From: an uncultured Mycoplasmatota bacterium
GTDB lineage: Bacteria > Bacillota_I > Bacilli_A > RF39 > UBA660
DNA length: 64,000 nt
NCBI GenBank assembly: GCA_947571135.1
Contig: CANOWY010000002.1
Location: forward strand, 5,569-69,568
Reading direction: 5' to 3'
In this document: in pieces, positions 1 through 47,498 of the stretch
Layout of the letters: every line of letters begins with the position of its first letter
Position numbering within the stretch: position 1 is the first letter of the stretch
Notes under the pieces: generated by a model
Databases searched by the model: none
Told to the model about the DNA's origin: nothing
The model's input: only the letters and a program-made list of their open reading frames with translations
Program-made: the position numbers and the translations under genes

Positions 1-605
1 TTTTCGATTGGTAAATAGAATTCTTCTTGGTTTATTATTTTTCCATTTAATATAGTAAGTGCATTTTTTAATAAATCTATTTCTTTTTCTATATTTGCTT
101 TTAAAGGAAGAAAGTGTCCTTTTATTTTAAGTGCAGGAATTGAAATTTCTGCTAATATACGTAATTCTGCTACTGCACGAGAAGTTACAATATCAAATTT
201 TTCTTTGTGATTTTTAACATAATCTTCAGCACGTTCATAAATAATTTCTACATTCGTTAATTTTAATTTTTCTTTTAATAAGTTTAAAAACGTAATTTTT
301 TTATTATTGGAATCAAGTAGGGTAAAATGACTTTCTTTATTAATAATAGCCAAGACCATTCCCGGAAAACCTGCACCTGTTCCTATATCTAAAACTTTTA
401 GACCATTTTTTATATATTTATTTATAGTAAGTGAATCGTAAAAATGTTTTAAATAAATGTTTTCTTCGTCTGTTATGGCTGTAAGATTTGTATGAGTATT
501 GTATTCTATCAAAAAATCTTTATAAATTTCTAATTGGTTCATTTGTTCTTCTGTGAGTGTAATATTAATTTTTTCTAACTCACTTATCAATTGTTCTTTA
601 TTCAT
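1..605 (-). CDS. rsmG: 16S rRNA (guanine527-N7)-methyltransferase RsmG/GidB. It starts at ATG 603-605 and its 3' end runs off the window.
   Basis: Manual minus-strand translation gives MNKEQLISELEKINITLTEEQMNQLEIYKDF...VLDIGTGAGFPGMVLAI, with a SAM-binding GxGxG motif. It lies directly downstream of mnmG in the conserved operon and overlaps the mnmG stop by 8 nt. Confidence 0.85.
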   Translation of the reverse strand, partial: MNKEQLISELEKINITLTEEQMNQLEIYKDFLIEYNTHTNLTAITDEENIYLKHFYDSLTINKYIKNGLKVLDIGTGAGFPGMVLAIINKESHFTLLDSNNKKITFLNLLKEKLKLTNVEIIYERAEDYVKNHKEKFDIVTSRAVAELRILAEISIPALKIKGHFLPLKANIEKEIDLLKNALTILNGKIINQEEFYLPIE

Positions 606-2463
606 TTTTTCCATATTCCTTCTTTAAATAAATAGCAAGAATTGAGATATCCGCTGGATTAACTCCGCTGATTCTTGAGGCTTGCCCAATAGATAGAGGT
701 CGAATCATTTCTAATTTCTGTCTTGCTTCACTTGCTAAGTTTTTTACTTTACTGTAGTCAATATCTTTTGGAATTTGTTTTTCTTCTAGTTTTAGCATTC
801 TTTCTATTTCTTTTTCAGTCTTTTTAATGTATCCTTCGTATTTGATGTCAATACTGACAATTTCTTTTACCTCTAATGAAAAAGGAATAGGGATAAACTT
901 ATTTAAAAAATCTAGTGTTATTTCTGGTCTTTTTAATAATTCTAATAAGGAAGTTTTATTAAGTGGCAAAGAAAAGTTATTTTCTTCAAAAGAAGTTCGT
1001 ACTTCTTCTATTACTTCTAGTTTTGTATTTTTTAAGAAGTTTTTTAATTCTTCTATTTCTTTTAAATGATTCGTATAGTTTTTATACATTTCTTCAGTAA
1101 TTGTTCCTAATTGATGACCATATTCACGAAGACGAATGTCGGCGTTATCATGTCGAAGAAGAAGCCTATATTCTGCACGAGAAGTTAACATACGATAAGG
1201 TTCTTTTGTTCCTTTTGTGACTAAATCATCAATTAGTACTCCTATGTAGGATTCGTTTCTTTTTAAGATAAACGGTTCTTTATTTTCTAATTTTAGTACA
1301 GCGTTGATTCCTGCGATTAAGCCTTGGCCTGCGGCTTCTTCGTATCCACTTGTACCATTGATTTGTCCAGCCGTAAATAGATTTTCTATTACTTTTGTTT
1401 CTAATGAAGGTTTTAATTGTAATGGGTCTATTGCATCGTATTCAATTGCATAGGCATATTTCGTAATGATAGCATTTTCAAGTCCTTTCAAACTATGCAC
1501 CATTTTCTCTTGTACATCTTCTGGCATAGAGGTAGAAAATCCCCCGATATACCACTCATCATAATACATGCTTTCTGGTTCTAAGAAAAGTTGATGCCTT
1601 TCCTTATCTTTAAAACGTACTATTTTATCTTCAATTGAAGGACAGTATCTTGGACCTATGCCTGTAACATATCCACCATACATACTAGATTTGTCTAAGT
1701 TGTCCATTATAATTTTGTGTGTATTTTCATTTGTATAGATAAGATAGCATTTTTGTTGTTCTTCCATTTTGTATTTTGGTTTCTCATCATGGGAAAAGGT
1801 ATAGTAAATATTGGCTCCATATTCAGGGGAACATACAGAAAAATCAATGGAGTCTGCTTTAATTCTAGGAGGTGTTCCAGTTTTTAATCTTTGAATTGTA
1901 AAGCCTAGTTTTTTTAAATTATCACTTAAGAAGTTACTTCTTGCTTCTCCATGTGGACCACTTTCGGTACTTGATGCACCTCTTAATATATTGCTTTTTA
2001 AATAAGTTCCTGTTGTTAAAATTAGAATATCACATAAAATTTCTTCGTTATTTGAAGTTAGGATTCCTTTGATTTTGCTATTTTCTACTAAAATATCTTC
2101 TACGGTTGCTTCCATAATCTTTAAATTATCTGTATTTTCTAAACGTTTTAACATATTTTTAGGATATGTTGTTTTGTCGGCTTGGCAACGCAAGGAACGA
2201 ACAGCAGGGCCTTTTTTGCTATTTAACATTTTAATTTGAAAATGGGATTCATCTGCAACACAACCCATTAATCCCCCTAAAGCATCAATGTCACGGACAA
2301 TGACCCCTTTTGCTGTTCCTCCAATAGAAGGATTACAAGGCATATCGGCGATATTGTTTTTATTCATTGTAATTAATAATGTTTTTTTTTCCATAAAGGC
2401 TGTAATATGGGCTGCTTCACAACCAGCATGTCCACCACCTACAACTATACATTCGTATTTCAT
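598..2463 (-). CDS. mnmG: tRNA uridine-5-carboxymethylaminomethyl modification enzyme MnmG (GidA)
   Basis: 621 aa with an N-terminal FAD dinucleotide fold (VVGGGHAGCEAA). Length and position are typical of GidA. Confidence 0.95.
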   Translation of the reverse strand: MKYECIVVGGGHAGCEAAHITAFMEKKTLLITMNKNNIADMPCNPSIGGTAKGVIVRDIDALGGLMGCVADESHFQIKMLNSKKGPAVRSLRCQADKTTYPKNMLKRLENTDNLKIMEATVEDILVENSKIKGILTSNNEEILCDILILTTGTYLKSNILRGASSTESGPHGEARSNFLSDNLKKLGFTIQRLKTGTPPRIKADSIDFSVCSPEYGANIYYTFSHDEKPKYKMEEQQKCYLIYTNENTHKIIMDNLDKSSMYGGYVTGIGPRYCPSIEDKIVRFKDKERHQLFLEPESMYYDEWYIGGFSTSMPEDVQEKMVHSLKGLENAIITKYAYAIEYDAIDPLQLKPSLETKVIENLFTAGQINGTSGYEEAAGQGLIAGINAVLKLENKEPFILKRNESYIGVLIDDLVTKGTKEPYRMLTSRAEYRLLLRHDNADIRLREYGHQLGTITEEMYKNYTNHLKEIEELKNFLKNTKLEVIEEVRTSFEENNFSLPLNKTSLLELLKRPEITLDFLNKFIPIPFSLEVKEIVSIDIKYEGYIKKTEKEIERMLKLEEKQIPKDIDYSKVKNLASEARQKLEMIRPLSIGQASRISGVNPADISILAIYLKKEYGKNE

Positions 2464-2614
2464 TTTTAACCTCCTTATATTTTTTCTTATTAAATCGTTT
2501 ATCTTTTAAATTCTTCTATTTCATCATCATTACAAGTTGGAAATGACATTTTATTCAATAATAAATTCATATCTTTTTCTATTTCTTTTTCAGTTCGTTT
2601 ATCAATTTTTATTT

Positions 2615-3118
2615 CTAGCATATCTTCAAAATTATTTCTAAAAAAAACTTAGCAATCTCTTTTACTATTATTCCAGAAGATTTAATTTTGTCCACTAATT
2701 CTATGTATTTTGCAAATTCTTCCTCTTCATTTTCTCTTTCATTTCCTTCCATAGGATTCATAGAAATATCGACTATATATTGAGGTAAAAGTTCTTCTAA
2801 AGGTATTGCATATTCTGGAATTGGTAATGCTTTTCCTTTGAACATATAAAACCCAAATCCTATATATTTTTCTAGAATTTCTTCTGGGATATTGGCTATC
2901 ATGTATAAAATATAGTTATCATTTTTTCTTTCATAACTACCATCTTTTCCTAACTGAAAATAATATCTAGCAAACTCATCATATCGAAAAAAATGAAAGT
3001 ACTCTTTATCTTCTTGATATTTATGGGTATTTATTCTATTATTATTTATTTTTTCATTTTTGGCATTGGTGTATTTATTAATTACTTCTTGTAGTTTGAT
3101 ACAACGATATACTCGCAT
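2615..3118 (-). CDS. Hypothetical protein (167 aa) between mnmG and mnmE
   Basis: An ORF on the operon strand with an acidic C-terminal half and no recognised motif. mnmE and mnmG are normally adjacent. Confidence 0.4.
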   Translation of the reverse strand: MRVYRCIKLQEVINKYTNAKNEKINNNRINTHKYQEDKEYFHFFRYDEFARYYFQLGKDGSYERKNDNYILYMIANIPEEILEKYIGFGFYMFKGKALPIPEYAIPLEELLPQYIVDISMNPMEGNERENEEEEFAKYIELVDKIKSSGIIVKEIAKFFLEIILKIC

Positions 3119-3136
3119 TTAAACCCTCCACTTTTT

Positions 3137-4495
3137 TTATTTTCCTAAACAAAAATTTTTAAACAATTTATCTATTAGTTCATCTTCATAGGTCTCACCA
3201 ATTAGAATACCTAATTTATCAAAAGCATTTCTTAAATGAATTTCTAGCATATCTACTGGAATATTATTTTCGATATCTTCTAGGACTTGTTTTATACTAT
3301 CTAAAGATTCTGTAACTAGAGTAATTTGTCTTACATTAGACAGGTACGTTAAATCTTTTTCTTCTATTTTATCTAACTTATACATTTCTATGATTTTTTG
3401 TTTTAGTTCTTCTAAGCCATTTAAAGTTTTGGTGTTTCCTTTTATTATATTTAAATTATCTGGCAGTTTTATTTTTTGCTTTAAATCTGTTTTGTTAAGG
3501 AAAATTAAATTTGGTTTCTTTTTTATTTGTTCTAAAAGTTCTAAATCATTGTTTGTTAATTCTTCATTGCTATTTAATACGAGGATAATTAAGTCAGATT
3601 CTTCAATAACCTGTTTACTTTTTTCTACACCAATTTTCTCCACAATATCTTCTGTTTCTCTTATTCCAGCAGTATCAATTAAGTTGATTTCAATTCCATT
3701 TAATGTCATCTTGGCTTCAATAATATCTCTTGTTGTTCCAGAAATGTCAGTAACGATTGCTTTTTCCTCATTTAATAAGGAATTTAATATACTACTTTTT
3801 CCAACATTTGGTCTTCCAACCAACGCAATATCAATTCCTGATTTAATCATTTGTCCTACCTTAGAATTTGAAAGTAATAGTTCTAAGTCTTTTTTTATAA
3901 TAGATACTTTTTCTTTTAAAAATTCGTGTGTAACATCAATAGCGTCATCGTATTCAGGATAATCGATATTTACTTCAATGTTGGCAATGATGTCTAATAT
4001 ATGATCTCGTACGTTTCTTACTAATTTTGTTAGTCTACCATTTACACCATTTAAAGCCATTTTTCTTTGGGTTTCACTTTTGGATTCTATAAGATCACTT
4101 ACACTTTCGGCTTCAAGTAAACTAATACGGCCATTTAAAAATGCCCTTTTTGTAAATTCTCCAGGTTCTGCAAGACGTGCTCCGCTACTTATTAACAATT
4201 CTAAAATACGATTTGTAGTTGCAATACCTCCATGGCAGTTAATTTCTACAATATCTTCTGTTGTAAATGTTTTTGGAGATAACATGACCATTACTAAAAC
4301 TTCGTCGATTTCTTCGTTTCCATCCACAATATATCCATAATGTATCGTATGAGAATCTACTTTGGTTAAATCTTTTCCTTTAAATATACTGTTTACTAAA
4401 TATAATGCTTCTTTTCCACTTACTCTTATAATAGAAATTGCTCCTTTACCTAGAGAAGTTGATATTGCTACAATTGTATCTTCCATAAATACCAT
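3137..4495 (-). CDS. mnmE: tRNA modification GTPase MnmE (TrmE)
   Basis: 452 aa with a G-domain carrying GRPNVGKSS (G1), DTAG and NKTD, and the C-terminal CxGK tail (CLGK). Confidence 0.93.
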   Translation of the reverse strand: MVFMEDTIVAISTSLGKGAISIIRVSGKEALYLVNSIFKGKDLTKVDSHTIHYGYIVDGNEEIDEVLVMVMLSPKTFTTEDIVEINCHGGIATTNRILELLISSGARLAEPGEFTKRAFLNGRISLLEAESVSDLIESKSETQRKMALNGVNGRLTKLVRNVRDHILDIIANIEVNIDYPEYDDAIDVTHEFLKEKVSIIKKDLELLLSNSKVGQMIKSGIDIALVGRPNVGKSSILNSLLNEEKAIVTDISGTTRDIIEAKMTLNGIEINLIDTAGIRETEDIVEKIGVEKSKQVIEESDLIILVLNSNEELTNNDLELLEQIKKKPNLIFLNKTDLKQKIKLPDNLNIIKGNTKTLNGLEELKQKIIEMYKLDKIEEKDLTYLSNVRQITLVTESLDSIKQVLEDIENNIPVDMLEIHLRNAFDKLGILIGETYEDELIDKLFKNFCLGK

Positions 4496-4566
4496 TCCAA
4501 TCGACTTGTATTATAGCATAATTTCCTAAATTCTTGTATAGAATTAGTCTTTATTTCTTTTATAGG

Positions 4567-5448
4567 TTATTTTAAATACATTCCTAAATATCGTCTTTGA
4601 CTTTCTTCTTTAGTTTTATAATAGTTATAAACTTCTTCAAAGGCTGCACAATTTTGATTAAACTTATAAAATTTGCATATCTCTTCCCAAGTTGTACTCA
4701 TCTTTGTTTCTAATAATGAAGATAAAAAGTTTTCAAAATAAGGATATTGTTTTATTAAAATTTGGATATTTCTATCTGTAATTCTTAAAATAACACCTTG
4801 TAAATCTAAACCACTTTTTTCCTCTACTTTTGGAATACAATTAGAAAAATCATAAAGAGGTGCTAAATCAATATATTTTGTTATCGGGTTTTTTTCAAAT
4901 TGTAGATTGGCACTATTTCTATCTTTTTGTAACATATAAATATCTAATGCTAACATTTCTAAAATATGTTCTGTTAAAATTTCTCTGTTTTCATCACTAA
5001 CACATAATAATTTTAAGTTTTCAATATTCTCTACACAAAATGGTGCATAACTTAGATGAGTATATTTCTCATAAATGTCATAATAATGTTTGCCAAAGTA
5101 ATAAAGAAATCTTTCTTGTTTAAAATTTTTAGAAGCCAGTCCTATTTTTTTGTTTTTGATTTTTGCTATAAAATAAGAAACTACTTTCATATTGTTTTTC
5201 TGTGCTAAAAAACTTCCCATTAATTCGTCAAGCAAATAAAATGGATAGCCAAAGTTTTCCTCTTCTTCTTTAAAATAATACCAACTATTATTCATGAAAT
5301 ACATCATCTTCATATAGTCGTCTTGTTTTTCTAAATCCCCATTATTTGTGAGTAAAATTTCTTTTTTTTCTTCTTTTGAAACAGAATAATCATTTGAAAG
5401 TTTTATTGTAGGAGTATTTTCTGTAATTAAATTTTTTAAATATAACAT
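4567..5448 (-). CDS. Hypothetical protein with protein-kinase-like (HipA/APH-type) catalytic motifs
   Basis: 293 aa. It carries ...LQKDRNSAN... (DxxxxN) followed 18 residues later by YIDLAPLYDF, which resembles the catalytic-loop and Mg-binding LAPxYD motifs of HipA_C and APH-fold kinases. It is paralogous to the 47609-48679 protein. Confidence 0.45.
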   Translation of the reverse strand: MLYLKNLITENTPTIKLSNDYSVSKEEKKEILLTNNGDLEKQDDYMKMMYFMNNSWYYFKEEEENFGYPFYLLDELMGSFLAQKNNMKVVSYFIAKIKNKKIGLASKNFKQERFLYYFGKHYYDIYEKYTHLSYAPFCVENIENLKLLCVSDENREILTEHILEMLALDIYMLQKDRNSANLQFEKNPITKYIDLAPLYDFSNCIPKVEEKSGLDLQGVILRITDRNIQILIKQYPYFENFLSSLLETKMSTTWEEICKFYKFNQNCAAFEEVYNYYKTKEESQRRYLGMYLK

Positions 5449-5581
5449 AATAGTCCTTCCCCTTTGATTTTATCTATTATATATTATCTTTTTAAATTTT
5501 CAAGAAAAAATGAAAAAAACAAAAATTGGAAAATAAATTTTTTTATGGTATACTGAAAATATAATGAAGGAGGGTTTTAGT

Positions 5582-6565
5582 TTGAAATACATAAGACCGT
5601 ATAAAATAATACATTGTGAAGAATTTTTAAGGGAACCAGCGCAAGATACATTTAAAGAAATAGAAAAATTAGAAGTTTCTAAAATTATTTTGAGAGGAAA
5701 AGGAACAGGAAGAAGTACACTTTTAAATTATATGCAAGAAAAGAAAGCAAATACAGAACAACCATTTATGCTTTTAAATTTTAATAGGGATAATTTACCT
5801 TCAGATACAAAAAATTTTTTAGCAAAAGAATTTTTTGAACATTATTGGGAGATACATTTTACCAGAGAAATCCTTTGGTATATTAAAAAATATCATGAAT
5901 TAACTTATCAAAGCAAATTCTCACAATATGGTGAGGCTATACAGAATTGTTGCCAAGAAATAGTTGATTTACTAAATAGTTTAGTTTTTACAGATAGTTA
6001 TTGCTTACCAAAATTATATACTTCTAAAGAAATTAGTGGAGAAATATTAGATAAATTTAAAAAACTAATGCATATTGAATCAATAGAACTTGGTAGTAAT
6101 CGTTTTGATAGTATTAATAATAGTGATGAATTAGCACAAAAGATTTTATATTCTTATTTTGATTTATTTGATAAAACTATTATTGAAGTAGATGATGAAA
6201 GTTTACCTGAATATTGGTATAAAACTTATTTTAATGAAAATAGTGAACTCATTACTTTCACTCCATATTCTATCGAGTATAATAAAAATTTAGAAATTGT
6301 TTATGCTATTATAAAAAAGAGAATTATGGGATATAATGCAACAATACCATTGGATTGGTTAAATTATGACACTTTAAATTTATTAGTAACTTGTACAAAT
6401 GGAAATATAAAAATAATTTTAGATATTGTAAATGAAATAATTTTAATATGGGAAATAAATGACAGAATTAGACGAGAAGATATTAAAGATACAATTCATG
6501 AAGTTTTATTAAATAATAGAAGTAGAAAACTTATGCGTAGTAAACAACCAAAATTATATTTATAA
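5582..6565 (+). CDS. Hypothetical protein with a deviant P-loop (ILRGKGTGRSTLL). It is transcribed divergently from the kinase-like gene.
   Basis: The AAGGAGG RBS at 5567-5573 lies inside the ORF-track ATG codon, so the TTG at 5582 is the more likely start. The Walker-A-like GKGTGRST has Arg in place of the Lys, and no other motif was recognised. Confidence 0.4.
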   Translation: MKYIRPYKIIHCEEFLREPAQDTFKEIEKLEVSKIILRGKGTGRSTLLNYMQEKKANTEQPFMLLNFNRDNLPSDTKNFLAKEFFEHYWEIHFTREILWYIKKYHELTYQSKFSQYGEAIQNCCQEIVDLLNSLVFTDSYCLPKLYTSKEISGEILDKFKKLMHIESIELGSNRFDSINNSDELAQKILYSYFDLFDKTIIEVDDESLPEYWYKTYFNENSELITFTPYSIEYNKNLEIVYAIIKKRIMGYNATIPLDWLNYDTLNLLVTCTNGNIKIILDIVNEIILIWEINDRIRREDIKDTIHEVLLNNRSRKLMRSKQPKLYL

Positions 6566-6592
6566 TAAACTATTTAAAAACCCGCAGTTTTA

Positions 6593-7204
6593 TTAGTCTG
6601 TGGGTTTTATAATGACATGACGATTTGGCTCTTCGCCTTCACTAGTAGTTTCTACACCTTTAAAATCTGTTAATATGTTATGTACAATTCTTCTTTCAAA
6701 GGAATTCATATTCTCTAAAGTGGCTTCTACTTTAGTACTTCGAACTTCTCTAGCAATTTTCTTAGCCATGTATTCTAAGTTTTTTATTCTTTTTTCTTTG
6801 TAATTTTCTACATCTAAGGAAATAGTAATGTGAACACCATAAGTATTTAATACTTTTTGCTTTACTAATGTTTCTAAGGCTTTTAGTGTTTTTCCATCTT
6901 TTCCAATTAGGATAGCATTATTATCAGCATACATAGCAACATTTATTTTTCTATCTCGAATGGAACTTTCAAATTGAACTTCTAATCCTAAATTAATAAT
7001 GATTGCTTTTAGGTATTCTTTTATCTGTTCTACTAAATCTGTAAGAGTGATTGCTTTTATCTTATAATTGGATGATTTAAATAACTTGCCTGTTATTTCT
7101 TCTTCAACATGATAAATTATTTCACTTTCACTGGCATTTAATTTTTCTGTTGCTAATTTTATGGCCTCTTCTTTTGTTTTTGCTTCTAATTCTACTTCAA
7201 ACAT
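6593..7204 (-). CDS. jag: Jag/KhpB RNA-binding protein (Jag_N, KH and R3H domains)
   Basis: 203 aa, conserved directly downstream of yidC. It shows KH-like GKDGKTLKALE and an R3H region. Confidence 0.85.
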   Translation of the reverse strand: MFEVELEAKTKEEAIKLATEKLNASESEIIYHVEEEITGKLFKSSNYKIKAITLTDLVEQIKEYLKAIIINLGLEVQFESSIRDRKINVAMYADNNAILIGKDGKTLKALETLVKQKVLNTYGVHITISLDVENYKEKRIKNLEYMAKKIAREVRSTKVEATLENMNSFERRIVHNILTDFKGVETTSEGEEPNRHVIIKPTD

Positions 7205-7206
7205 TT

Positions 7207-8163
7207 CTAATTTCCTCTTTTCTTATTTCCCTCATTTATCTTTTTAAAAATAAAGTTTTGTATGACAACAAATCCATTCGTTACAATCCAATATAATGCA
7301 ATCGCAGTTGGTAGACTAAATGATGCAACGGAAATCATAATAATCATAAACTTTAAGGTAAGTTGCATTTGGCGTTCCATTTCATTGGTTGTTTTCTGGT
7401 TATGCATAGCATTTTTGAATGAAAAATAAGTGGATAAGATAATTAACACAATTAATAGAATATAAATATATTTTCCTTGCCCAATCCCAACCCAAGGGGT
7501 CATTCCAAGTTTCATTCCAAATAGACTATCTTCAAAAATTGCGGGCACACGATTGATGGCCTGTAAGAATGCAAAGAATAAAGGCAATTGAATAAAGGCA
7601 AGCAAACAGCCTGATACTGGATTAATTTTATATTTTTTGTATACGAGCATTGTTTCTTGACTTTTCATCATCATAGAATCACTATCGGTACGATTTTTAT
7701 ATTTCTTCTCAATTTTTTGTATTTCTGGTTGGGCTTTTTTCATATTTTCAGATTGTTCCATAGTTTTTTTAGAAAAAGGAAGTAAGATTAAACGAATTCC
7801 TAACCCAATTAACATTACAGATACTCCAAAGTTTTTAATAGCAAGTCCTAATTTCAATATTAACCATGCAAGTGGTTTCACAAATATTGATTCCCACAAA
7901 CTATGATACTTTATATCATTTGGTTTAAAACTGGCACACGTTGGCAAATCTTCTAATTTTGTTTTTAATTGGTCATTGTATTTTTCATACAGTTCATATA
8001 ATTCTTTTTCTTCTGGTTTACACAAAATATTATTTTGAAGACTTTGGCCTGTACTTTCATACGTTACTATACTTTTATCTTCTTTCAAATAGGTTTTATT
8101 TCCACAACCTGTTGTTAATAACAATACTGCAATTAGCAATACGAGTATTTTTTTTGTTTTCAT
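7207..8163 (-). CDS. yidC: Membrane protein insertase YidC/SpoIIIJ (lipoprotein form)
   Basis: 318 aa with a lipobox (LLTTGCG) and multi-TM YidC/Oxa1 core. It sits in the rnpA-yidC-jag synteny. Confidence 0.9.
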   Translation of the reverse strand: MKTKKILVLLIAVLLLTTGCGNKTYLKEDKSIVTYESTGQSLQNNILCKPEEKELYELYEKYNDQLKTKLEDLPTCASFKPNDIKYHSLWESIFVKPLAWLILKLGLAIKNFGVSVMLIGLGIRLILLPFSKKTMEQSENMKKAQPEIQKIEKKYKNRTDSDSMMMKSQETMLVYKKYKINPVSGCLLAFIQLPLFFAFLQAINRVPAIFEDSLFGMKLGMTPWVGIGQGKYIYILLIVLIILSTYFSFKNAMHNQKTTNEMERQMQLTLKFMIIMISVASFSLPTAIALYWIVTNGFVVIQNFIFKKINEGNKKRGN

Positions 8164-8486
8164 TTTATCTCCTTTATTAAATTTTCCAAATCACTTTTCT
8201 TTTGGAAAAATGATAATTCTACACAACTTTTCTTTATCATTATAATATAATCATGATTATTTGGAAAGTTTTCTTTTAGTTCATCTAGGATAGCACGTAA
8301 TTGTCTCTTTATCTTATTCCTTACTACGGCATTTCCAAGTTTTTTGGATACAGCAAGACCAAAGTGTCTTTTTCCTGTTTCTGTTTTCCTTATATATATA
8401 ACAAAACTTTGGTTTTTTATAAAAGGGGAATGTTTTATGATGTTATTGAAATCTATTTTAGATTTTACTACTTCATATTTTTTCAT
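8160..8486 (-). CDS. rnpA: RNase P protein component
   Basis: 108 aa and basic, with the RNR-like motif ...KLGNAVVRNKIKRQLR. It lies between rpmH and yidC. Confidence 0.9.
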   Translation of the reverse strand: MKKYEVVKSKIDFNNIIKHSPFIKNQSFVIYIRKTETGKRHFGLAVSKKLGNAVVRNKIKRQLRAILDELKENFPNNHDYIIMIKKSCVELSFFQKKSDLENLIKEIK

Positions 8487-8534
8487 AATATCCCTTCTTT
8501 CTGTAATATAGCAAAAAAACCACAGAAATGTGGT

Positions 8535-8663
8535 TTATTTCGTAATTAGGTTTTTACGGCCTTTTTTTCTTCTATTTTTTAAAATTTTCGTTTCTTTACG
8601 TGCAAAAAAACCATGTTTCTTTGCTTTTTTTCTTTTATTTGGTTGATAAGTACCTATTTTCAT
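8535..8663 (-). CDS. rpmH: 50S ribosomal protein L34
   Basis: Manual translation gives MKIGTYQPNKRKKAKKHGFFARKETKILKNRRKKGRKNLITK. It is not in the ORF track because it is shorter than the ORF-track length cutoff. Confidence 0.9.
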   Translation of the reverse strand: MKIGTYQPNKRKKAKKHGFFARKETKILKNRRKKGRKNLITK

Positions 8664-8885
8664 AAACGTTCCTCCTTAAATCTAAAGTCATTTTATTATA
8701 ATATTAGGCGAATCAAAATGTCAAGGAATAGATGATTCATTTTATGTTTTTATAAGGGAAAATATTTCTTTTTTATTTCGAGGCCCTTTTTTATTTTTAA
8801 GATTAAAATGTGAAGAAGTTTTTTTCTCATTCTAAATTATCAATAAGTATTAAAAATAGTTATTATAAAATAAATGTGCAAAATG

Positions 8886-9063
8886 TGTGCATAATCTTTT
8901 CTTTTAAATATTTGGGAAATATTGATTATAAACATTAATAACTTTATGTGGATAAATTTTATACACGATGTGAATAAAAAAATTAAAAATTTGTGGATAA
9001 TGTTGATAAATCTTAAAAAGTTAGTTATTATAATGGCGAATTGTGTGGATAACTTGTGCATAA
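8886..9063. promoter_or_regulatory. oriC DnaA-box cluster upstream of dnaA
   Basis: Perfect TGTGGATAA boxes (reverse complement of TTATCCACA) at 8947-8955, 8992-9000 and 9044-9052. One-mismatch boxes at 8886-8894, 8969-8977 and 9055-9063. All are in the same orientation within an AT-rich stretch. Confidence 0.8.
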
Positions 9064-9152
9064 CTATGTACATTTGCTTTTTCACTTTTCAATATTCAAT
9101 TAATGAGATACAATGAACTTACTTAGGGTAGCAGATAGCGGGGTGATGGAAT

Positions 9153-10502
9153 TTGCTGGTTGAAGAGTTATGGGGACAGTTTTTAGAGAAAGTCAAAAAT
9201 GAAATAAATTCTGCTTCTTATAATGCTTGGTTTAATGATTTGAAACTTGTGAATATTAACAGTGATTTTTTAACCATACAGGTGCCGATGGAAATTCATA
9301 AGAAAATTCTTGCCGAAAATTATTATTCTTTAATAGAAGATATTTTATTTAAACTTTCTGGGATTAATTATGATATTAAATTTATTTTAAAAGATGAAAT
9401 CCAAGAAGTAATTGTAGAACCACAAACAATTCCACAAAATCCCGTAAATGATTTTTGGGAAAGTAACTTGGATCAATCCCTTAATTTTGATAATTATATT
9501 GTGGGAAATACTAATCGGTTTGCTAAAGTGGCCGGAATGGCTGTAGCAGAACAACCAGGAAAAATTCATAATCCATTATTTATATATGGAAAAAGTGGAC
9601 TTGGAAAAACACATTTAATGCACGCTATTGGAAATTTCATAACAGAAAATACCAATAAAAAAGTGTTATACACAACAAGTGATATGTTTATGAACGAATA
9701 TATTGGAATTGCTGGGATGGAAAAAGGAAAATCAGCAATAGATTATTCTAATAATTTTAAAAATAAATATCGAAATGTTGACGTTTTGATTATTGATGAT
9801 ATTCAATATTTAGTAGGGGCAGATAAAACGCAAGAGGAATTCTTTTATACTTTTAACGCTCTTCATCAAGCCAATAAACAAATTATTATTAGTTCTGATA
9901 GAAGTCCAGATGATTTAAAGAAAATAGAGGAGCGCTTAAGAAGCAGATTTATGTGGGGACTTCCTGTAAATATTGACCCGCCAGACTTTGATTTACGCGT
10001 CCGAATTATTAAACAAAAGTTAAAGGGAAAAAGTATTCAAGATAAGGTGGACGAAGAAGTTATTGAATTTATTGCAAATAGTTGTCAAAATGATGTACGA
10101 TTTATTGAAGGAACTTTAAACCGGCTTATGGCATATACAGCAATGATTGTTCCAGAGCGTATTGATTTAGAGTTTGCTAACGAGGCTTTAAAAGATTATA
10201 TCAATGTGAATATATATTCTGATAACTCGATTGATAACATTCAAAAAGCCGTAGCAGACTTTTATAATATTACTATAGAAGATTTAAAAGGGAAAAAGCG
10301 AAGTGCGAAGATTGCTTATCCACGGCAAATTGGGATGTATTTATCTAGAATGCTTACAGATGAAACTGTATCTAGAATTGGCATGCAATTTGGTGGTAGA
10401 GATCATTCTACTGTTATTCATGCTTGTGATAAAATAACAGATGACTTAAAAAGTAATAAAAAATTGGAAGAAGAAATTAATATGATTAAGAATAAATTTT
10501 AA
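9153..10502 (+). CDS. dnaA: Chromosomal replication initiator DnaA (TTG start)
   Basis: 449 aa with an AAA+ core (GKSGLGKTHL, Walker B VLIIDDIQ) and a C-terminal DnaA-box-binding domain. Confidence 0.97.
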   Translation: MLVEELWGQFLEKVKNEINSASYNAWFNDLKLVNINSDFLTIQVPMEIHKKILAENYYSLIEDILFKLSGINYDIKFILKDEIQEVIVEPQTIPQNPVNDFWESNLDQSLNFDNYIVGNTNRFAKVAGMAVAEQPGKIHNPLFIYGKSGLGKTHLMHAIGNFITENTNKKVLYTTSDMFMNEYIGIAGMEKGKSAIDYSNNFKNKYRNVDVLIIDDIQYLVGADKTQEEFFYTFNALHQANKQIIISSDRSPDDLKKIEERLRSRFMWGLPVNIDPPDFDLRVRIIKQKLKGKSIQDKVDEEVIEFIANSCQNDVRFIEGTLNRLMAYTAMIVPERIDLEFANEALKDYINVNIYSDNSIDNIQKAVADFYNITIEDLKGKKRSAKIAYPRQIGMYLSRMLTDETVSRIGMQFGGRDHSTVIHACDKITDDLKSNKKLEEEINMIKNKF

Positions 10503-10665
10503 AGTTGTGAATACATGTGCATAACTTGTAAGAAAAAAGTAGAGGTTATTCACAGGAAATAGAAATAAAAATATGGGAAAATAAAGGAAATAACGAAGTT
10601 ATAAACTTTATCCACTGTATAATAAATAAAATAAAAAAAAGAACAAATAAGAAAGAAGGAAAATT
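10503..10665. promoter_or_regulatory. Second DnaA-box cluster and AT-rich putative unwinding region between dnaA and dnaN
   Basis: One-mismatch boxes TGTGCATAA (10517-10525), TTATTCACA (about 10546) and TTATCCACT (10608-10616), followed by an A/T run at 10620-10645. This bipartite arrangement is typical of Firmicutes oriC. Confidence 0.6.
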
Positions 10666-11784
10666 ATGAAATTTGCAATTGATAAAAATATTTTGCTTGA
10701 AAATTTGAATCATGTAATAAAAGGAGTATCTACAAAAAATGTAATTCCTGTATTAAATGGAATTAAATTTGAATTAAACAATAATGGATTATCTTTAACC
10801 GCAAGTGATAGTGAACTTACAATTAATTCTTTTATTGAAGCAAAAGAGATTAAGAATATTGAAAGTATTGGAACTATTATTATTCAAAGTAAATTTTTGG
10901 TGGATATTATTAGAAAACTCCCAGGAGATGTGGCTAACTTTGAAGTTATCGACAGATTAAAGATTAGAATTTATACGGAAAATGCCCAATTTAATTTGAA
11001 TTGTTTAGATGCTAATGATTATCCTAATTTAAAAATGGAAGAACACAAAGACCCTATTATTTTAAAAGGAGATCTTTTGAAAACACTTATTAATCAAACT
11101 GTGTTTGCTATATCTACACAAGAATTAAGGCCATTACTTACAGGTGTAAATGTTACAATTGTTGGAGATGAACTTGTATTTATTGCAACGGATTCTTATC
11201 GACTTGCGAAGAAGAATATAAAACTTGAAAATGCGATTGAAACAGATATTAACATTGTTATTCCAGGAAAAAACATTATAGAACTTGAAAAAATTATTAC
11301 AGATGAAGAAAACGTAGAAATGCATATTTTTAATAATAAAGTATTGTTTAAGTATAAAAATATTAAGTTTCAAACGAATTTGTTATCAGGAACTTATCCA
11401 AATACATCGAATTTAATTCCAACTGACTATGCTATTATCGTAAAGGTACGAAAAGATGAATATGCATCAAGTGTTGATAGAGCCGCCCTTTTAACCCAAG
11501 GAAAAGATAAGAATATTATTAAAATGAAGTTGGAAAATAAAGTCATGACGATTAATTCTTATGCGTCTGAAATTGGAAAGGTAGAGGAAAAATTAGCAGT
11601 AGATACAGAAGCAAGTTCTAGTATTGATATTTCTTTTAGTTCTAAGTATATGTTGGAGGCATTAAGAACCATAAAAGAAGAAGAGATATTTCTTTTAATG
11701 ACAGATGATGTGAAACCTATTGTAATTAAATCTGTTAGTGATGAATCTTTAATCCAACTTATTTTACCAATCAAAACTTATTAA
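10666..11784 (+). CDS. dnaN: DNA polymerase III beta sliding clamp
   Basis: 372 aa with three beta-clamp domains, downstream of dnaA. Confidence 0.95.
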   Translation: MKFAIDKNILLENLNHVIKGVSTKNVIPVLNGIKFELNNNGLSLTASDSELTINSFIEAKEIKNIESIGTIIIQSKFLVDIIRKLPGDVANFEVIDRLKIRIYTENAQFNLNCLDANDYPNLKMEEHKDPIILKGDLLKTLINQTVFAISTQELRPLLTGVNVTIVGDELVFIATDSYRLAKKNIKLENAIETDINIVIPGKNIIELEKIITDEENVEMHIFNNKVLFKYKNIKFQTNLLSGTYPNTSNLIPTDYAIIVKVRKDEYASSVDRAALLTQGKDKNIIKMKLENKVMTINSYASEIGKVEEKLAVDTEASSSIDISFSSKYMLEALRTIKEEEIFLLMTDDVKPIVIKSVSDESLIQLILPIKTY

Positions 11785-11870
11785 TTTAGGTTTTTTTCTT
11801 TTTTCGACAAAATTTCTTTCTCATTGAAGTTATTATAGAGAACAATTTTTAACAGGTGGGAGGTGGTTTT

Positions 11871-12317
11871 GTGGATAAGTATGAAATTAACGATAAGACA
11901 ATTGCTCTTTATTCTCTTACGAATAAAACAAGAGTGTATGAAGAAGATCGATCTTTTGTTGTGGATGCTTTAGCAAGTGAAATTATGGAAGATAGTTGTA
12001 CCTATTTTGGTAGTTCTTTGGAAGGAAGAAAGAAAGGAACTCATAATTTGATAGGGGTATCTTATAAGGCGCCAGTTATCGTAGAAGAAAGTAATGATAT
12101 GATTTTTTTTCCTACAACAAGTCCTAAAGTAAAATCTTGTTCATGGTTACGCTTTAATAAAATTAAATGTTATTATTACAAAAATAATCATTTAGTAGTA
12201 GAGTTTAAGAATGGCGATAAAATTTTACTTAATATTTCTTATGATATGATTAATAATCAAGTTTTACGTGCTACTAGATTAGAATCAGTTTTAAGAGAAA
12301 GAAAAATTCAAAAATAA
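11871..12317 (+). CDS. ComK-family transcription factor-like protein
   Basis: CTYFGSSLEGRKKGT, IFFPTTSP...CSWL and ISYDMINNQVLRATRLESVL align with the B. subtilis ComK motifs CRFFGSSYAGRKAGT, FLFPTLS...CGWI and ISYNSFENQVYRTAWLRTKF. The likely start is the GTG at 11871, after a GGTGGGAGGTGG RBS. Confidence 0.6.
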   Translation: MDKYEINDKTIALYSLTNKTRVYEEDRSFVVDALASEIMEDSCTYFGSSLEGRKKGTHNLIGVSYKAPVIVEESNDMIFFPTTSPKVKSCSWLRFNKIKCYYYKNNHLVVEFKNGDKILLNISYDMINNQVLRATRLESVLRERKIQK

Positions 12318-47036: not shown

Positions 47037-47498
47037 ATGAATTTGGAAGACGAAGAATTACAACTTTTGGCAGAAGAACAGATGAATAGATTAATAACAG
47101 AAATTCAAAAATATTTAAATAAGTTCTATGATAAAACGTATATCTTAGATAGTAGAGTAAAAAGTCCAGATAAATTAAAAATGAAACAAACGTTAATTTC
47201 TAGTAAAAAGGGATACCCAATTAAATTGACTGATCTTCCAGACATTATTGGGTTAAGAATATCAACAGAAACTGAACAAGATGTAGAAAAAATGAGTGAA
47301 CTAATTAAAGGATTATCACCTAGTAAAGTGATGGATTATTTTAATACGCCTAGAGAAAATGGGTTTAAAGCATTTTTATATTATTTTGAGAATATAGGAA
47401 TAAATGTAGAGATTCAGATTATGACAGTACAAATGATGGAATGGACAAATGCCACACATAAGGAACATGATACTGAAAAATATGGTCAAATAAGATAA
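47037..47498 (+). CDS. Minimal RelA/SpoT-domain nucleotidyltransferase (small alarmone synthetase-like, 153 aa)
   Basis: Motif-by-motif alignment to RelQ: SRVKSPDKLKMK vs GRVKPVASILEK; LPDIIGLRIS vs MQDIAGLRIM (catalytic Asp); DYFNTPRENGFKAFLYYF vs DYIAEHKESGYRSYHLVV; NVEIQIMTVQMMEWTNATHKEHDTEKY vs LVEIQIRTLAMNFWATIEHSLNYKY (catalytic Glu). It lacks the basic R/K and His residues that bind the pyrophosphate-acceptor nucleotide in RelQ. Confidence 0.65.
   Translation: MNLEDEELQLLAEEQMNRLITEIQKYLNKFYDKTYILDSRVKSPDKLKMKQTLISSKKGYPIKLTDLPDIIGLRISTETEQDVEKMSELIKGLSPSKVMDYFNTPRENGFKAFLYYFENIGINVEIQIMTVQMMEWTNATHKEHDTEKYGQIR

What the first reader, a model, noticed from the sequence alone, without database searches (positions are those of the whole stretch)
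4567..6565. Foreign two-gene insert (kinase-like protein and divergent deviant-P-loop protein) wedged into the mnmE-jag operon
From rpmH to rsmG the genes are normally contiguous. Here two genes sit between mnmE and jag: a 293-aa protein on the operon strand with DxxxxN...IDLAPxYD kinase-like motifs (LAPxYD is the HipA Mg-binding signature), and a 333-aa protein on the opposite strand with a deviant Walker A (GKGTGRST, Arg replacing Lys). They share a 115-bp divergent intergenic region (5449-5563). The kinase-like protein is a paralogue of the one downstream of the RelA/SpoT protein (47609-48679). The same family has therefore colonised two different ultra-conserved loci. This arrangement is typical of a toxin or defence gene with a partner.
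Basis: partly seen in the sequence, partly recalled or inferred. Interest (0 to 1): 0.6.

Follow-up and report, generated by a model that had tools for sequence, protein, structure and literature searches.

The report
Orphan HipA/CtkA-like kinase beside decaying NTPase
Two lineage-specific genes sit between mnmE and jag in an uncultured low-GC gut bacterium: a compact HipA/CtkA-fold protein kinase with no antitoxin, and a fast-evolving P-loop NTPase that is often lost; they are long-term, independent residents of this slot, not a recently inserted toxin-partner cassette.

Summary
Two ORFs lie between mnmE and jag, divergently transcribed: A (4567-5448, minus strand) and B (5564/5582-6565, plus strand).

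B belongs to a ~330-aa P-loop NTPase family (AAA_14/ORC-Cdc6/mS29-like). The Walker A lysine is arginine in this clade (13 of 62 family members).

The "foreign two-gene cassette / toxin plus partner" reading is not supported. Relatives carry A alone, B alone or both at this same slot. Strains with an identical A have B deleted or frameshifted. B evolves fast (dN/dS ~0.6 against ~0.15-0.4 for A). Neither family was found in the phage, plasmid or viral collections searched, and I saw no flanking repeats.

More distant A homologues sit upstream of hisS-aspS. The claimed paralogy with the 356-aa protein is undetectable by profile methods.

One hint remains: a B homologue lies directly downstream of a canonical HipBST module in another metagenome.

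The parts
4567..5448 (-). ORF A, 293 aa: compact HipA/CtkA-fold protein kinase. No N-subdomain-1 and no conserved Gly-rich loop.
5269..5271 (-). Codon of K60 (WYYFK). Invariant. Predicted ATP-binding beta-3 lysine.
   Evidence: Invariant column in A1. Aligned with the Lys of CtkA 'YMVKF'. The functional role is inferred.
4906..4923 (-). Catalytic loop D176-R-N-S-A-N181.
   Evidence: R177 is invariant; D176 and N181 are >=90% conserved. Aligned to CtkA D-R-H-N-G-N, which is D155..N160 by counting in the alignment.
4849..4866 (-). Mg-binding motif L-A-P-L-Y-D200.
   Evidence: A196, Y199 and D200 are invariant. Aligned to CtkA I-A-P-I-F-D (D179).
5476..5503 (-). Promoter-like site for A: TTGAAA-16-TATAAT (11 of 12). 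It is followed by the SD AAAGGGGAAGGA at 5454-5465.
   Evidence: Best-scoring site in 2400-7400. Sequence read directly. The -10 and SD are conserved in L006 and L010. Consensus match only; function is inferred.
5582..6565 (+). ORF B, 327 aa from TTG 5582 (333 aa from ATG 5564): AAA+/STAND-like P-loop NTPase with Walker A Lys replaced by Arg.
   Evidence: ORF. Start inferred from homologues and the SD. 193 representatives in a full-length family. 32 of 62 members hit AAA_14, 17 hit ORC-CDC6-like, 19 hit DAP3. Profile vs PDB hits mS29/DAP3 at E=6e-6. The AF2 model is unusable (pLDDT 45).
5696..5719 (+). Walker A G45-K-G-T-G-R50-S-T (Arg at the Lys position).
   Evidence: K in 49 and R in 13 of 62 family members. 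The close clade has R except P0025.
6173..6199 (+). Walker B-like strand T-I-I-E-V-D-D-E (residues 204-212).
   Evidence: Family consensus is hhhhT.DD. D211 is D in 55 of 62 members. A strand is predicted at 204-210 in the low-confidence model.
5526..5554 (+). Promoter-like site for B: TTGGAA-17-TATACT with an upstream TG. The SD AAGGAGG lies at 5567-5573.
   Evidence: Consensus match only.
6577..6608 (.). GC-rich hairpin between the convergent 3' ends of B and jag, with A/T runs on both sides: a likely bidirectional terminator.
   Evidence: RNA fold dG -15.7 kcal/mol, z -4.7, 0 of 200 shuffles as good. An equivalent hairpin follows jag in L006 and L010.

Best explanation
These are two unrelated, lineage-specific accessory genes that have long shared one intergenic slot in a clade of uncultured, low-GC gut Bacilli/'Tenericutes'. 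They are not a mobile two-gene module.

Gene A. It encodes a compact, stand-alone Ser/Thr-type protein kinase of the HipA/CtkA branch of the PI3/4-kinase-like fold. The ATP-binding Lys (K60), the probable alpha-C Glu (E75), the catalytic loop D176...N181 and the Mg-binding D200 are all intact. It has its own sigma-70-like promoter and a strong SD. I saw no terminator before mnmE, so it may read through into mnmE. It is inherited vertically under purifying selection. My inference is that it phosphorylates one or more cellular proteins, most plausibly in translation or tRNA metabolism, as all characterised Hip kinases do. It would act as a chromosomal growth or translation regulator rather than as the toxin of an addiction module.

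Gene B. It encodes an AAA+/STAND-like P-loop NTPase. The Walker A Lys-to-Arg change probably leaves nucleotide binding but little hydrolysis. It evolves about five times faster than its neighbours at the protein level and is dispensable: it is lost or pseudogenised repeatedly, with no effect on A.

Shown: the fold, the motifs, the synteny, the presence/absence pattern and the selection pattern.
Inferred: kinase activity, the target class, and the nucleotide-binding state of B.
For: Kinase assignment for A:
- Profile hit to CtkA, E=4.2e-6, aligning DRxxxN and APxYD.
- AF2 model with pLDDT 91.5.
- Foldseek top 24 hits are all CtkA, HipA, HipT or Lpg2370.
- Conservation: K60 and D200 invariant; E75, D176 and N181 >=90%.

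Synteny and independence of the two genes:
- jag-A-(71 aa)-mnmE in L001/L012/L013 (A 52% identical, neighbours 73-82%).
- jag-B-A-mnmE in the window, L007, L010 and L011.
- jag-B-mnmE in L022-L024.
- jag-[B remnant]-A-mnmE in L006/L008/L009.
- B frameshifted in L032.

Selection:
- A dN/dS 0.15-0.40; B 0.58-0.65; neighbours 0.05-0.15.
- B dN ~0.30 against ~0.06 for neighbours.

No mobility signal:
- No phage, plasmid or IMG/VR relatives.
- No flanking repeats.
- GC only ~1.3 sd below the window ORF mean.

Other:
- Own promoters, SDs and a terminator after jag.
- Distant A homologues (36-46% identical) in 8 species lie just upstream of, and co-oriented with, [AAA ATPase]-hisS-aspS. In L016 the genes upstream are rel-dtd by Pfam; L015 and L019 show the same gene-size pattern. 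This fits a translation-linked chromosomal role.
Against: - No biochemical data exist. Kinase activity and substrate are pure inference.
- A lacks a conserved Gly-rich loop. Residues 31-40 are variable with pLDDT 62. It gets no Pfam HipA_C hit. It could therefore bind nucleotide unusually or phosphorylate a non-protein substrate.
- One distant member (P0022) lacks D176.
- A's dN/dS is higher than that of housekeeping genes.
- The link to tRNA genes may be trivial, since most genes in a reduced genome are housekeeping.
- A B-family member sits directly after a HipB-HipS-HipT module in L026. That argues against complete functional independence of B-type NTPases and Hip kinases.
- B's structure could not be modelled.
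- Host taxonomy and the species tree were not established, so the order of gains and losses is inferred from pairwise identities only.
Confidence: 0.6

Rival explanations
1. A and B form a functional pair. A would be a Hip-like kinase toxin or effector. B would be its NTPase partner: an antitoxin, a sensor or a regulator, as in a TA or defence system. The divergent shared promoter region would co-regulate them.
For: - Divergent arrangement with a short shared control region.
- A is in the HipA toxin superfamily.
- B is a fast-evolving STAND/AAA+-like NTPase, a class common in defence systems.
- Independently, a 34%-identical B homologue lies 63 bp downstream of, and co-oriented with, an HTH/HipS/HipA_C module in L026.
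- In L031 a B homologue is followed by an AAA_15/AAA_21 ATPase and then a 245-aa ORF whose kinase-like motifs I saw by eye only.
Against: - A occurs without B and B without A at the same slot.
- B is deleted or frameshifted in strains with a 100%-identical A. So B is not needed to neutralise A.
- No B-family gene lies near the 9 distant A-homologue loci examined (8 hisS-aspS loci plus L004).
- PADLOC gives no hits for either protein.
- The other B contexts are unrelated to kinases.
- The L031 ORF has no Pfam or PDB support.
Confidence: 0.15
2. A is not a protein kinase. It is either a small-molecule or lipid/sugar kinase, or a pseudokinase or scaffold. The same fold is used by PI4KII, CotH, Fam20 and MavQ.
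For: - The Gly-rich loop canonical for Hip kinases is absent.
- No Pfam HipA_C hit.
Against: - The best sequence and structure matches are the protein kinases CtkA and HipA, by a clear margin.
- All catalytic residues are conserved under purifying selection, which argues against a pseudokinase.
Confidence: 0.15
3. The pair is recently acquired foreign cargo: horizontal transfer into the operon by a mobile element whose traces have eroded.
For: - GC of A (0.238) and B (0.235), and B's GC3 (0.117), are below the window means (0.276 and 0.182).
- Both families are narrow and patchy in distribution.
- A has a weak hit to a phage family of unknown function, phrog_3162, E=4.9e-5.
- Mosaic identity around the slot in L011, L008 and L009.
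Against: - Orthologues sit at the same position in species whose housekeeping neighbours are only 73-90% identical.
- No repeats, integrase or tRNA at the borders.
- No relatives in the phage, plasmid or viral collections.
- The low GC is shared by other non-housekeeping ORFs in the window.
Confidence: 0.07

Closest known systems
CtkA (JHP940) of Helicobacter pylori, a ~325-aa Ser/Thr kinase (PDB 3akj/3akk/3akl)
   Different: Only 13-15% identical. According to PMC5536186, CtkA is linked to the tfs3 ICE and needs its type IV secretion system for its pro-inflammatory activity on host cells. A lies in the chromosomal oriC-proximal operon of a low-GC Gram-positive-type genome, with no ICE or T4SS genes nearby, and is syntenic across species. 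A has Asn/Lys/Glu where CtkA and HipA have the His of D-x-H-x-x-N.
HipA / HipT toxin kinases of hipBA and hipBST modules (Pfam HipA_C, PF07804)
   Different: No HipA_C Pfam hit even at E<=1. No conserved Gly-rich loop. No upstream HipB (HTH) or HipS gene. Not in an operon with its neighbour B. Vertically inherited next to housekeeping genes.
HipH (YjjJ), the solitary Hip kinase of E. coli
   Same: A Hip-superfamily kinase encoded without a separate antitoxin gene (PMC8262856, PMC9948734).
   Different: HipH carries an N-terminal HTH domain and all four canonical Hip motifs. A has neither the HTH nor the Gly-rich loop.
AAA_14 / ORC-Cdc6-like / mS29 (DAP3)-like P-loop NTPases (for B)
   Same: Family members match AAA_14 (32 of 62), DAP3 (19), ORC-CDC6-like (17) and AAA_16 (15). 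The family profile matches the P-loop region of mitoribosomal mS29 (E=6e-6). It has a Walker A, a Walker B-like hhhhT.DD, and a helical C-terminal part.
   Different: The window protein itself hits no Pfam model. Its Walker A Lys is Arg. The matches cover only about the first 100 residues. No reliable 3-D model was obtained, so the exact NTPase class is unsettled.

Membership tests
Hip kinases (HipA_C, PF07804; criteria of Gerdes et al. 2021, PMC8262856) | Match to the Pfam HipA_C model at or above the gathering score | tested here: not met
   No HipA_C hit for A even at E<=1. By contrast, the L026 neighbour kinase scores 151 bits.
Hip kinases (HipA_C, PF07804; criteria of Gerdes et al. 2021, PMC8262856) | HipA-type kinase fold | tested here: met
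Hip kinases (HipA_C, PF07804; criteria of Gerdes et al. 2021, PMC8262856) | Catalytic motif (Asp...Asn loop) and Mg2+-binding motif (APxYD) | tested here: met
   D176-R-x3-N181 and L-A-P-L-Y-D200 are conserved in 21 homologues and aligned with the CtkA motifs.
Hip kinases (HipA_C, PF07804; criteria of Gerdes et al. 2021, PMC8262856) | Conserved Gly-rich (P-) loop, with an adjacent autophosphorylated Ser/Thr | tested here: not met
   No conserved Gly motif N-terminal to K60. Residues ~30-45 are variable with indels and the lowest pLDDT (62).
Hip kinases (HipA_C, PF07804; criteria of Gerdes et al. 2021, PMC8262856) | Adjacent antitoxin gene, usually a DNA-binding HipB and/or a HipS | tested here: not met
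   The neighbours are mnmE and B (a P-loop NTPase) or jag. No HTH or Couple_hipA gene appears in the window, L001, L006-L013 or L014-L021.
Hip kinases (HipA_C, PF07804; criteria of Gerdes et al. 2021, PMC8262856) | Ser/Thr kinase activity that inhibits growth (aaRS phosphorylation) | not testable with these tools
   Needs biochemistry and expression assays.
CtkA-like kinases | Significant sequence-profile and structural similarity to CtkA over the whole domain | tested here: met
CtkA-like kinases | Carried on an ICE/plasticity zone and dependent on a T4SS | tested here: not met
   Chromosomal oriC-proximal slot, syntenic in relatives, with no ICE or T4SS genes within the loci read.
Type II toxin-antitoxin pair (A+B) | Two co-transcribed adjacent genes that strictly co-occur | tested here: not met
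   The genes are divergent with separate promoters. A occurs without B (L001, L006, L008, L009, L012, L013). B occurs without A (L022-L024). B is a pseudogene in L032.
Known anti-phage defence systems (PADLOC-DB) | Match of either protein to a defence-system model | tested here: not met
   No hits at E<=1 for A, B, the 167-aa ORF or the 356-aa ORF.
P-loop NTPases, AAA+/STAND-like (AAA_14, ORC-CDC6-like, AAA_16) - for B | Walker A GxxxxGK[ST] | tested here: inconclusive
   The family consensus GRGxGK[ST] is canonical (K in 49 of 62). The window protein has G-T-G-R-S-T, so the motif is present but the Lys is replaced.
P-loop NTPases, AAA+/STAND-like (AAA_14, ORC-CDC6-like, AAA_16) - for B | Walker B (hydrophobic strand ending in D[DE]) | tested here: met
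   T-I-I-E-V-D-D-E at 204-212. D211 is conserved in 55 of 62 members.
P-loop NTPases, AAA+/STAND-like (AAA_14, ORC-CDC6-like, AAA_16) - for B | Profile match / fold | tested here: inconclusive
   The window protein has no Pfam hit, but 32 of 62 relatives hit AAA_14 (best 2e-6), and the family profile hits mS29 at E=6e-6. The AF2 model has pLDDT 45, so no fold search was done.
ParA/MinD 'deviant Walker A' ATPases - for B | KGGxxGK[ST] with a conserved signature Lys | tested here: not met
   The motif is (R/T)G(K/E/G)(R)GxG(K/R)[ST]. K46 is E in most close relatives. No ParA/CbiA Pfam hits appear among the 25 families listed (30 matched in all).
Same family as the 356-aa protein at 47609-48679 (claimed paralogue) | Detectable homology between the two families | tested here: inconclusive
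   BLASTP E=0.022 over 79 aa. hhalign probability 0.9%. hmmsearch both ways finds nothing convincing: only P0148, 9.6 bits, E=0.0013 against 41 sequences. A4 has no PDB hit. The positive control A1 vs a HipA_C protein also fails, so a shared fold is not excluded.

The most novel reading that the evidence does not exclude
B-type NTPases are a previously unrecognised accessory component of Hip-superfamily kinase systems, acting as a regulator, sensor or neutraliser. The evidence is two phylogenetically distant adjacencies: a CtkA-like kinase next to B here, and a canonical HipB-HipS-HipT module followed by a B homologue in L026. On this reading, A is the first example of a domesticated, vertically inherited Hip-like kinase wired into the tRNA-modification/aaRS operons (mnmE, hisS-aspS) of reduced-genome gut Bacilli, where it would control translation.
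Probability: 0.12. Interest if true: 0.65.

Novelty: new member of a known kind. Interest (0 to 1): 0.38.

Why it matters
Hip-family kinases are studied almost only as toxins of hipBA/hipBST modules in Proteobacteria, where they drive persistence by phosphorylating aminoacyl-tRNA synthetases.

This is a divergent branch of that family that the Pfam, NCBIfam and PADLOC models searched here do not detect. It is confined to uncultured, small-genome gut Bacilli. It has no antitoxin, and it is inherited in synteny with tRNA-related housekeeping genes (mnmE in one subclade, hisS-aspS in another).

If it is active, it would be a chromosomal Ser/Thr kinase regulating core physiology in organisms with few known regulators. 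It would also extend the range of 'solitary' Hip kinases such as HipH and CtkA.

The practical lesson for genome scans is that a gene pair in an ultra-conserved operon is not by that fact a mobile cassette. Comparative synteny here separates the two genes into independent histories.

Tried and rejected
1. Pfam, NCBIfam, PADLOC and PHROGs on A, B, the 167-aa ORF and the 356-aa ORF. Nothing useful came back except a weak phrog_3162 hit for A.
2. AF2 of B with the 8-sequence alignment A3. The model had pLDDT 45 and was unusable. So B's fold and the 356-aa protein's fold remain untested.
3. Paralogy of A and the 356-aa protein. BLASTP, hhalign and reciprocal hmmsearch gave nothing convincing. I rejected this as evidence of non-homology, because hhalign of A1 against a true HipA_C protein is also negative.
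4. afdb50 fold search: the library was not available. The BFVD viral fold search gave only weak generic kinase hits.
5. Phage, plasmid and IMG/VR searches for A and B: no matches.
6. A metagenome scan for B-family loci. The first alignment was too diverse. The second returned only 4 loci. Several contig look-ups gave contigs too short to be informative. The B-kinase association therefore could not be tested statistically.
7. Flanking direct or inverted repeats: only AT-rich chance matches.
8. Rfam on 1-12000: nothing.
9. The 167-aa ORF as a degraded Nmad3: no similarity.
10. The L027 315-aa and L031 245-aa neighbours of B homologues as A-like kinases. No HMM, Pfam or PDB support. Only by-eye motifs in the L031 ORF.
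Full report
**1. What is in the sequence**

Window 1-12000 is an oriC-proximal region of a ~27% GC genome. The gene order is mnmG (598-2463, minus strand), a 167-aa ORF (2615-3118, minus), mnmE (3137-4495, minus), ORF A (4567-5448, minus, 293 aa), ORF B (5564-6565, plus, 333 aa), jag (6593-7204, minus), yidC, rnpA, then dnaA and dnaN on the plus strand.

The two extra ORFs and their divergent arrangement are therefore real.

- A has the best sigma-70-like site of the region (TTGAAA-16-TATAAT, 5503-5476) and a strong SD.
- B has a TG-extended -10-like site. An SD (AAGGAGG, 5567-5573) is placed for the TTG at 5582, not the ATG at 5564. All homologues start MKYIRP, so B is probably 327 aa.
- A stable hairpin flanked by A/T runs (6577-6608, dG -15.7, z -4.7) lies between the convergent ends of B and jag. 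It probably terminates both.
- I saw no terminator between A and mnmE. mnmE has its own TGcTATAAT.
- Rfam finds nothing here.

**2. ORF A is a HipA/CtkA-fold kinase**

Pfam, NCBIfam and PADLOC give nothing. PHROGs gives only a weak hit to a family of unknown function.

A has 22 homologue clusters, all unannotated. A profile built from them hits H. pylori CtkA at E=4.2e-6. That alignment places A's D176-R-x3-N181 on CtkA's DRHNGN, L-A-P-L-Y-D200 on IAPIFD, and K60 on the Lys of YMVKF. By counting in that alignment these are CtkA D155, N160 and D179. From memory of the 2010 CtkA structure paper, which I did not re-read, those are the catalytic residues.

The AF2 model is confident (pLDDT 91.5, pTM 0.91).
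- Foldseek against the PDB: CtkA first (E=7e-9), then Shewanella and E. coli HipA, Legionella Lpg2370/HipT and E. coli HipT, and further down CotH and PI4K type II.

Conservation across the family: K60 and D200 are invariant, and E75, D176 and N181 are >=90% conserved.

Measured against the four canonical Hip motifs (PMC8262856), A has the catalytic and Mg-binding motifs. It has no conserved Gly-rich loop: the segment before K60 is variable, carries indels and has the lowest pLDDT. Like HipT, HipG, HipI and HipJ, it lacks N-subdomain-1.

A fails several membership criteria of the Hip family proper.

**3. ORF B is a P-loop NTPase with a degenerate Walker A**

The word-index search found only 9 close clusters. 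The exhaustive profile search found 193 representatives, almost all 310-345 aa.
- Among 62 aligned members, 32 hit AAA_14, 19 DAP3, 17 ORC-CDC6-like and 15 AAA_16.
- The family profile hits the P-loop region of mitoribosomal mS29/DAP3 (E=6e-6).
- The family Walker A is canonical (GRGxGK[ST]). Lys is present in 49 of 62 and Arg in 13 of 62. The window's clade carries Arg, with one close relative (P0025) carrying Lys.
- A Walker B-like hhhhT.DD is conserved.

'Deviant Walker A' in the ParA/MinD sense does not apply. The AF2 model from the shallow alignment failed (pLDDT 45), so the exact NTPase class is open.

**4. Comparative genomics separates the two genes**

All hosts are uncultured gut Bacilli/'Tenericutes' MAGs. 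The jag-mnmE slot exists in five states.

| State | Where | Notes |
|---|---|---|
| jag-B-A-mnmE | window, L007, L010, L011 | |
| jag-[B remnant]-A-mnmE | L006, L008, L009 | Flanking proteins nearly identical (mnmE 92-99.6%) and A 100% identical. Only a 219-nt, 67%-identical, indel-ridden remnant of B's 3' end survives. About 850 bp are missing. |
| B broken by a 25-nt deletion giving an immediate TAA | L032 (96% nt identity to the window) | |
| jag-A-(71-aa ORF)-mnmE | L001, L012, L013 | A 52% identical, neighbours 73-82% |
| jag-B-mnmE, no A, no A remnant | L022-L024 | B 51-56% identical, neighbours 80-91% |

Each gene is therefore an old resident of the slot, and each is lost independently.

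More distant A homologues (36-46% identical, 8 species) are not at this slot. They lie just upstream of, and co-oriented with, hisS-aspS, mostly with an intervening gene of 482-506 aa. In L016, the one locus scanned with Pfam, that gene is an AAA ATPase, and the upstream genes are secDF, rel, dtd and an AI-2E-family transporter. L015 and L019 show the same gene-size pattern. One homologue (P0022, 34% identical) is upstream of the suf operon and lacks D176. No B-family gene is present in those loci.

**5. Selection and composition**

| Gene | dN/dS against the window |
|---|---|
| A | 0.15 (L010), 0.24 (L011), 0.40 (L012) |
| B | 0.58-0.65 |
| Neighbours | mostly 0.05-0.15 (mnmE vs L011 0.24) |

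B's dN is ~0.30 against ~0.06 for its neighbours. A is under purifying selection. B is weakly constrained or diversifying.

GC of A (0.238) and B (0.235) is about 1.3-1.4 sd below the window's ORF mean (0.276, sd 0.030). It lies within the range of other non-housekeeping ORFs.

I found no flanking repeats. There were no relatives in 50,697 phage records, 72,556 plasmid records or IMG/VR. Nothing indicates a mobile element.

**6. The claimed paralogue**

The 356-aa protein (47609-48679) belongs to a larger unannotated family, with more than 220 clusters.
- BLASTP to A: E=0.022 over 79 aa.
- hhalign of the two family profiles: probability 0.9%.
- Reciprocal hmmsearch: nothing convincing. The only hit under the inclusion threshold is one sequence at 9.6 bits, E=0.0013 against a 41-sequence set.
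- The family profile has no PDB hit.
- A 45%-identical relative is not next to a RelA/SpoT gene.

So paralogy is unsupported. The hhalign test is insensitive, though: it also misses A against a bona fide HipA_C protein. The 356-aa family also has invariant N176-x-H178-Y-E-N181 and D199. Their pattern and 23-residue spacing resemble HipA's DxHxKN...D, which I recall from memory. I leave a shared fold as untested.

**7. A residual hint of a link between B-type NTPases and Hip kinases**

In L026 a B homologue (34% identical) lies 63 bp downstream of, and co-oriented with, an HTH_3 (71 aa) - Couple_hipA (109 aa) - HipA_C (315 aa, 151 bits) module, that is a hipBST-like locus.

In L031 a B homologue is followed by an AAA_15/AAA_21 ATPase and then a 245-aa ORF in which I can see GxGxxxxV...VVK, DLxxRN and IDLD by eye. 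That ORF has no Pfam or PDB support.

Other B contexts are unrelated. With fewer than ten informative contexts this could be chance, or it could be co-location of accessory genes in variable slots.

**8. Explanation**

Most likely (about 0.6), A is a stand-alone, chromosomally inherited Hip-superfamily protein kinase with an intact active site. It would act on a cellular, probably translation-related, substrate. B would be an unrelated, dispensable, rapidly evolving NTPase that happens to share the slot.

The fold, motifs, synteny, presence/absence pattern and selection are shown. Activity, substrate and the consequence of the K-to-R change are inferred.

The rivals are set out in the Rival explanations section, with what would refute each:
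- a functional A-B pair (~0.15);
- a non-protein kinase or pseudokinase (~0.15);
- recent foreign cargo (~0.07).

**9. Comparison and novelty**

A works like CtkA and HipA and is closest to CtkA. It is not a member of Pfam HipA_C and fails the Gly-rich-loop and antitoxin criteria. I file it as a new, divergent member (a small new family) of the known HipA/CtkA kinase superfamily. B is a member of an uncharacterised AAA_14/ORC-like NTPase family.

Solitary Hip-type kinases (HipH, CtkA) are already known, so the category is not new. The new elements are the host lineage, the synteny with mnmE and hisS-aspS, and the failure of the Pfam, NCBIfam and PADLOC models to detect it.

**10. Verdict**

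- Observation: partly confirmed.
- Interpretation: partly supported. The kinase and the R-for-K P-loop are right. The cassette, the toxin-partner pairing and the paralogue are not supported.
- Interest: 0.38.

Noticed in passing
window 2615-3118 (-); L012 8567-9454: A third lineage-specific gene sits inside the same 'contiguous' operon. It is a 167-aa ORF between mnmE and mnmG with no family hit. In the more distant relative (L001/L012) the same slot holds an unrelated 287-295-aa Nmad3 (PF18754, nucleotide-modification-associated) protein. L022/L024 have nothing there. So the mnmE-mnmG junction is a second variable slot.
   Followed up: partly
L011 (CAMYTM010000029.1) vs window 3137-10502; also L008, L009: There is a mosaic identity pattern. 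In L011, dnaA, yidC, jag and B are 99-100% identical to the window at protein level, but A is 83% and mnmE 80%. The switch falls in the A-B intergenic region. In L008 and L009, mnmE is 92-95% identical while A and mnmG are ~100%. This is either homologous recombination between diverged lineages or chimeric metagenome assembly.
   Followed up: no
L006 7726-7935 (also L008, L009): The B remnant is only ~67% identical to the window's B 3' end, whereas the adjacent jag 3' end is ~96% and the A promoter region 98-100% identical. That is too diverged for simple within-species decay. It may derive from a different B allele or be an old polymorphism.
   Followed up: partly
window 47037-47498 (+) and 47609-48679 (+): A very short (153 aa) RelA_SpoT-domain protein (PF04607, E=2.7e-14) is followed by the 356-aa protein of a large unannotated family. 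That family has invariant N176-x-H-Y-E-N181 and D199, reminiscent of a HipA-type catalytic/Mg motif with Asp replaced by Asn. It may be a pseudokinase or something unrelated. The pairing with the RelA/SpoT gene is not kept in a 45%-identical relative (L035).
   Followed up: partly
L014-L021, e.g. L016 220-11169: Distant A homologues are embedded in the conserved Firmicute block secDF-rel-dtd-(AI-2E transporter)-[A]-[482-aa AAA + AAA_lid_6 ATPase]-hisS-aspS. So in two subclades the kinase gene sits immediately upstream of tRNA-related genes: mnmE in one, hisS-aspS in the other. Only L016 was scanned with Pfam.
   Followed up: partly
L026 1322-4554: A complete hipBST-like module (HTH_3 71 aa, Couple_hipA 109 aa, HipA_C 315 aa) is followed, on the same strand after 63 bp, by a B-family NTPase and then a DHH-family gene.
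   Followed up: partly
L031 5992-8752: A B-family NTPase is followed by a 239-aa AAA_15/AAA_21 (OLD/AbiEii-like) ATPase and a 245-aa ORF. That ORF has protein-kinase-like motifs visible by eye (GFGQSACV...VVK, DLYARN, IDLD) but no Pfam or PDB hit. The three genes are wedged between a class II aaRS gene and gmk.
   Followed up: partly
L006 13610-15202 (also L007-L009): A 530-aa ORF with no Pfam hit lies between rsmG (gidB) and an unusually long (~610 aa) ParB-domain protein. This is another lineage-specific gene in the ori-proximal block. It lies just outside the left end of the window.
   Followed up: no
L012 6956-7171: In the subclade that has A but no B, a 71-aa ORF with no family hit follows A and precedes mnmE. 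It has no counterpart in the window, where the A-mnmE gap is only 71 bp. Whether it is a small partner of A in that subclade is unknown.
   Followed up: no
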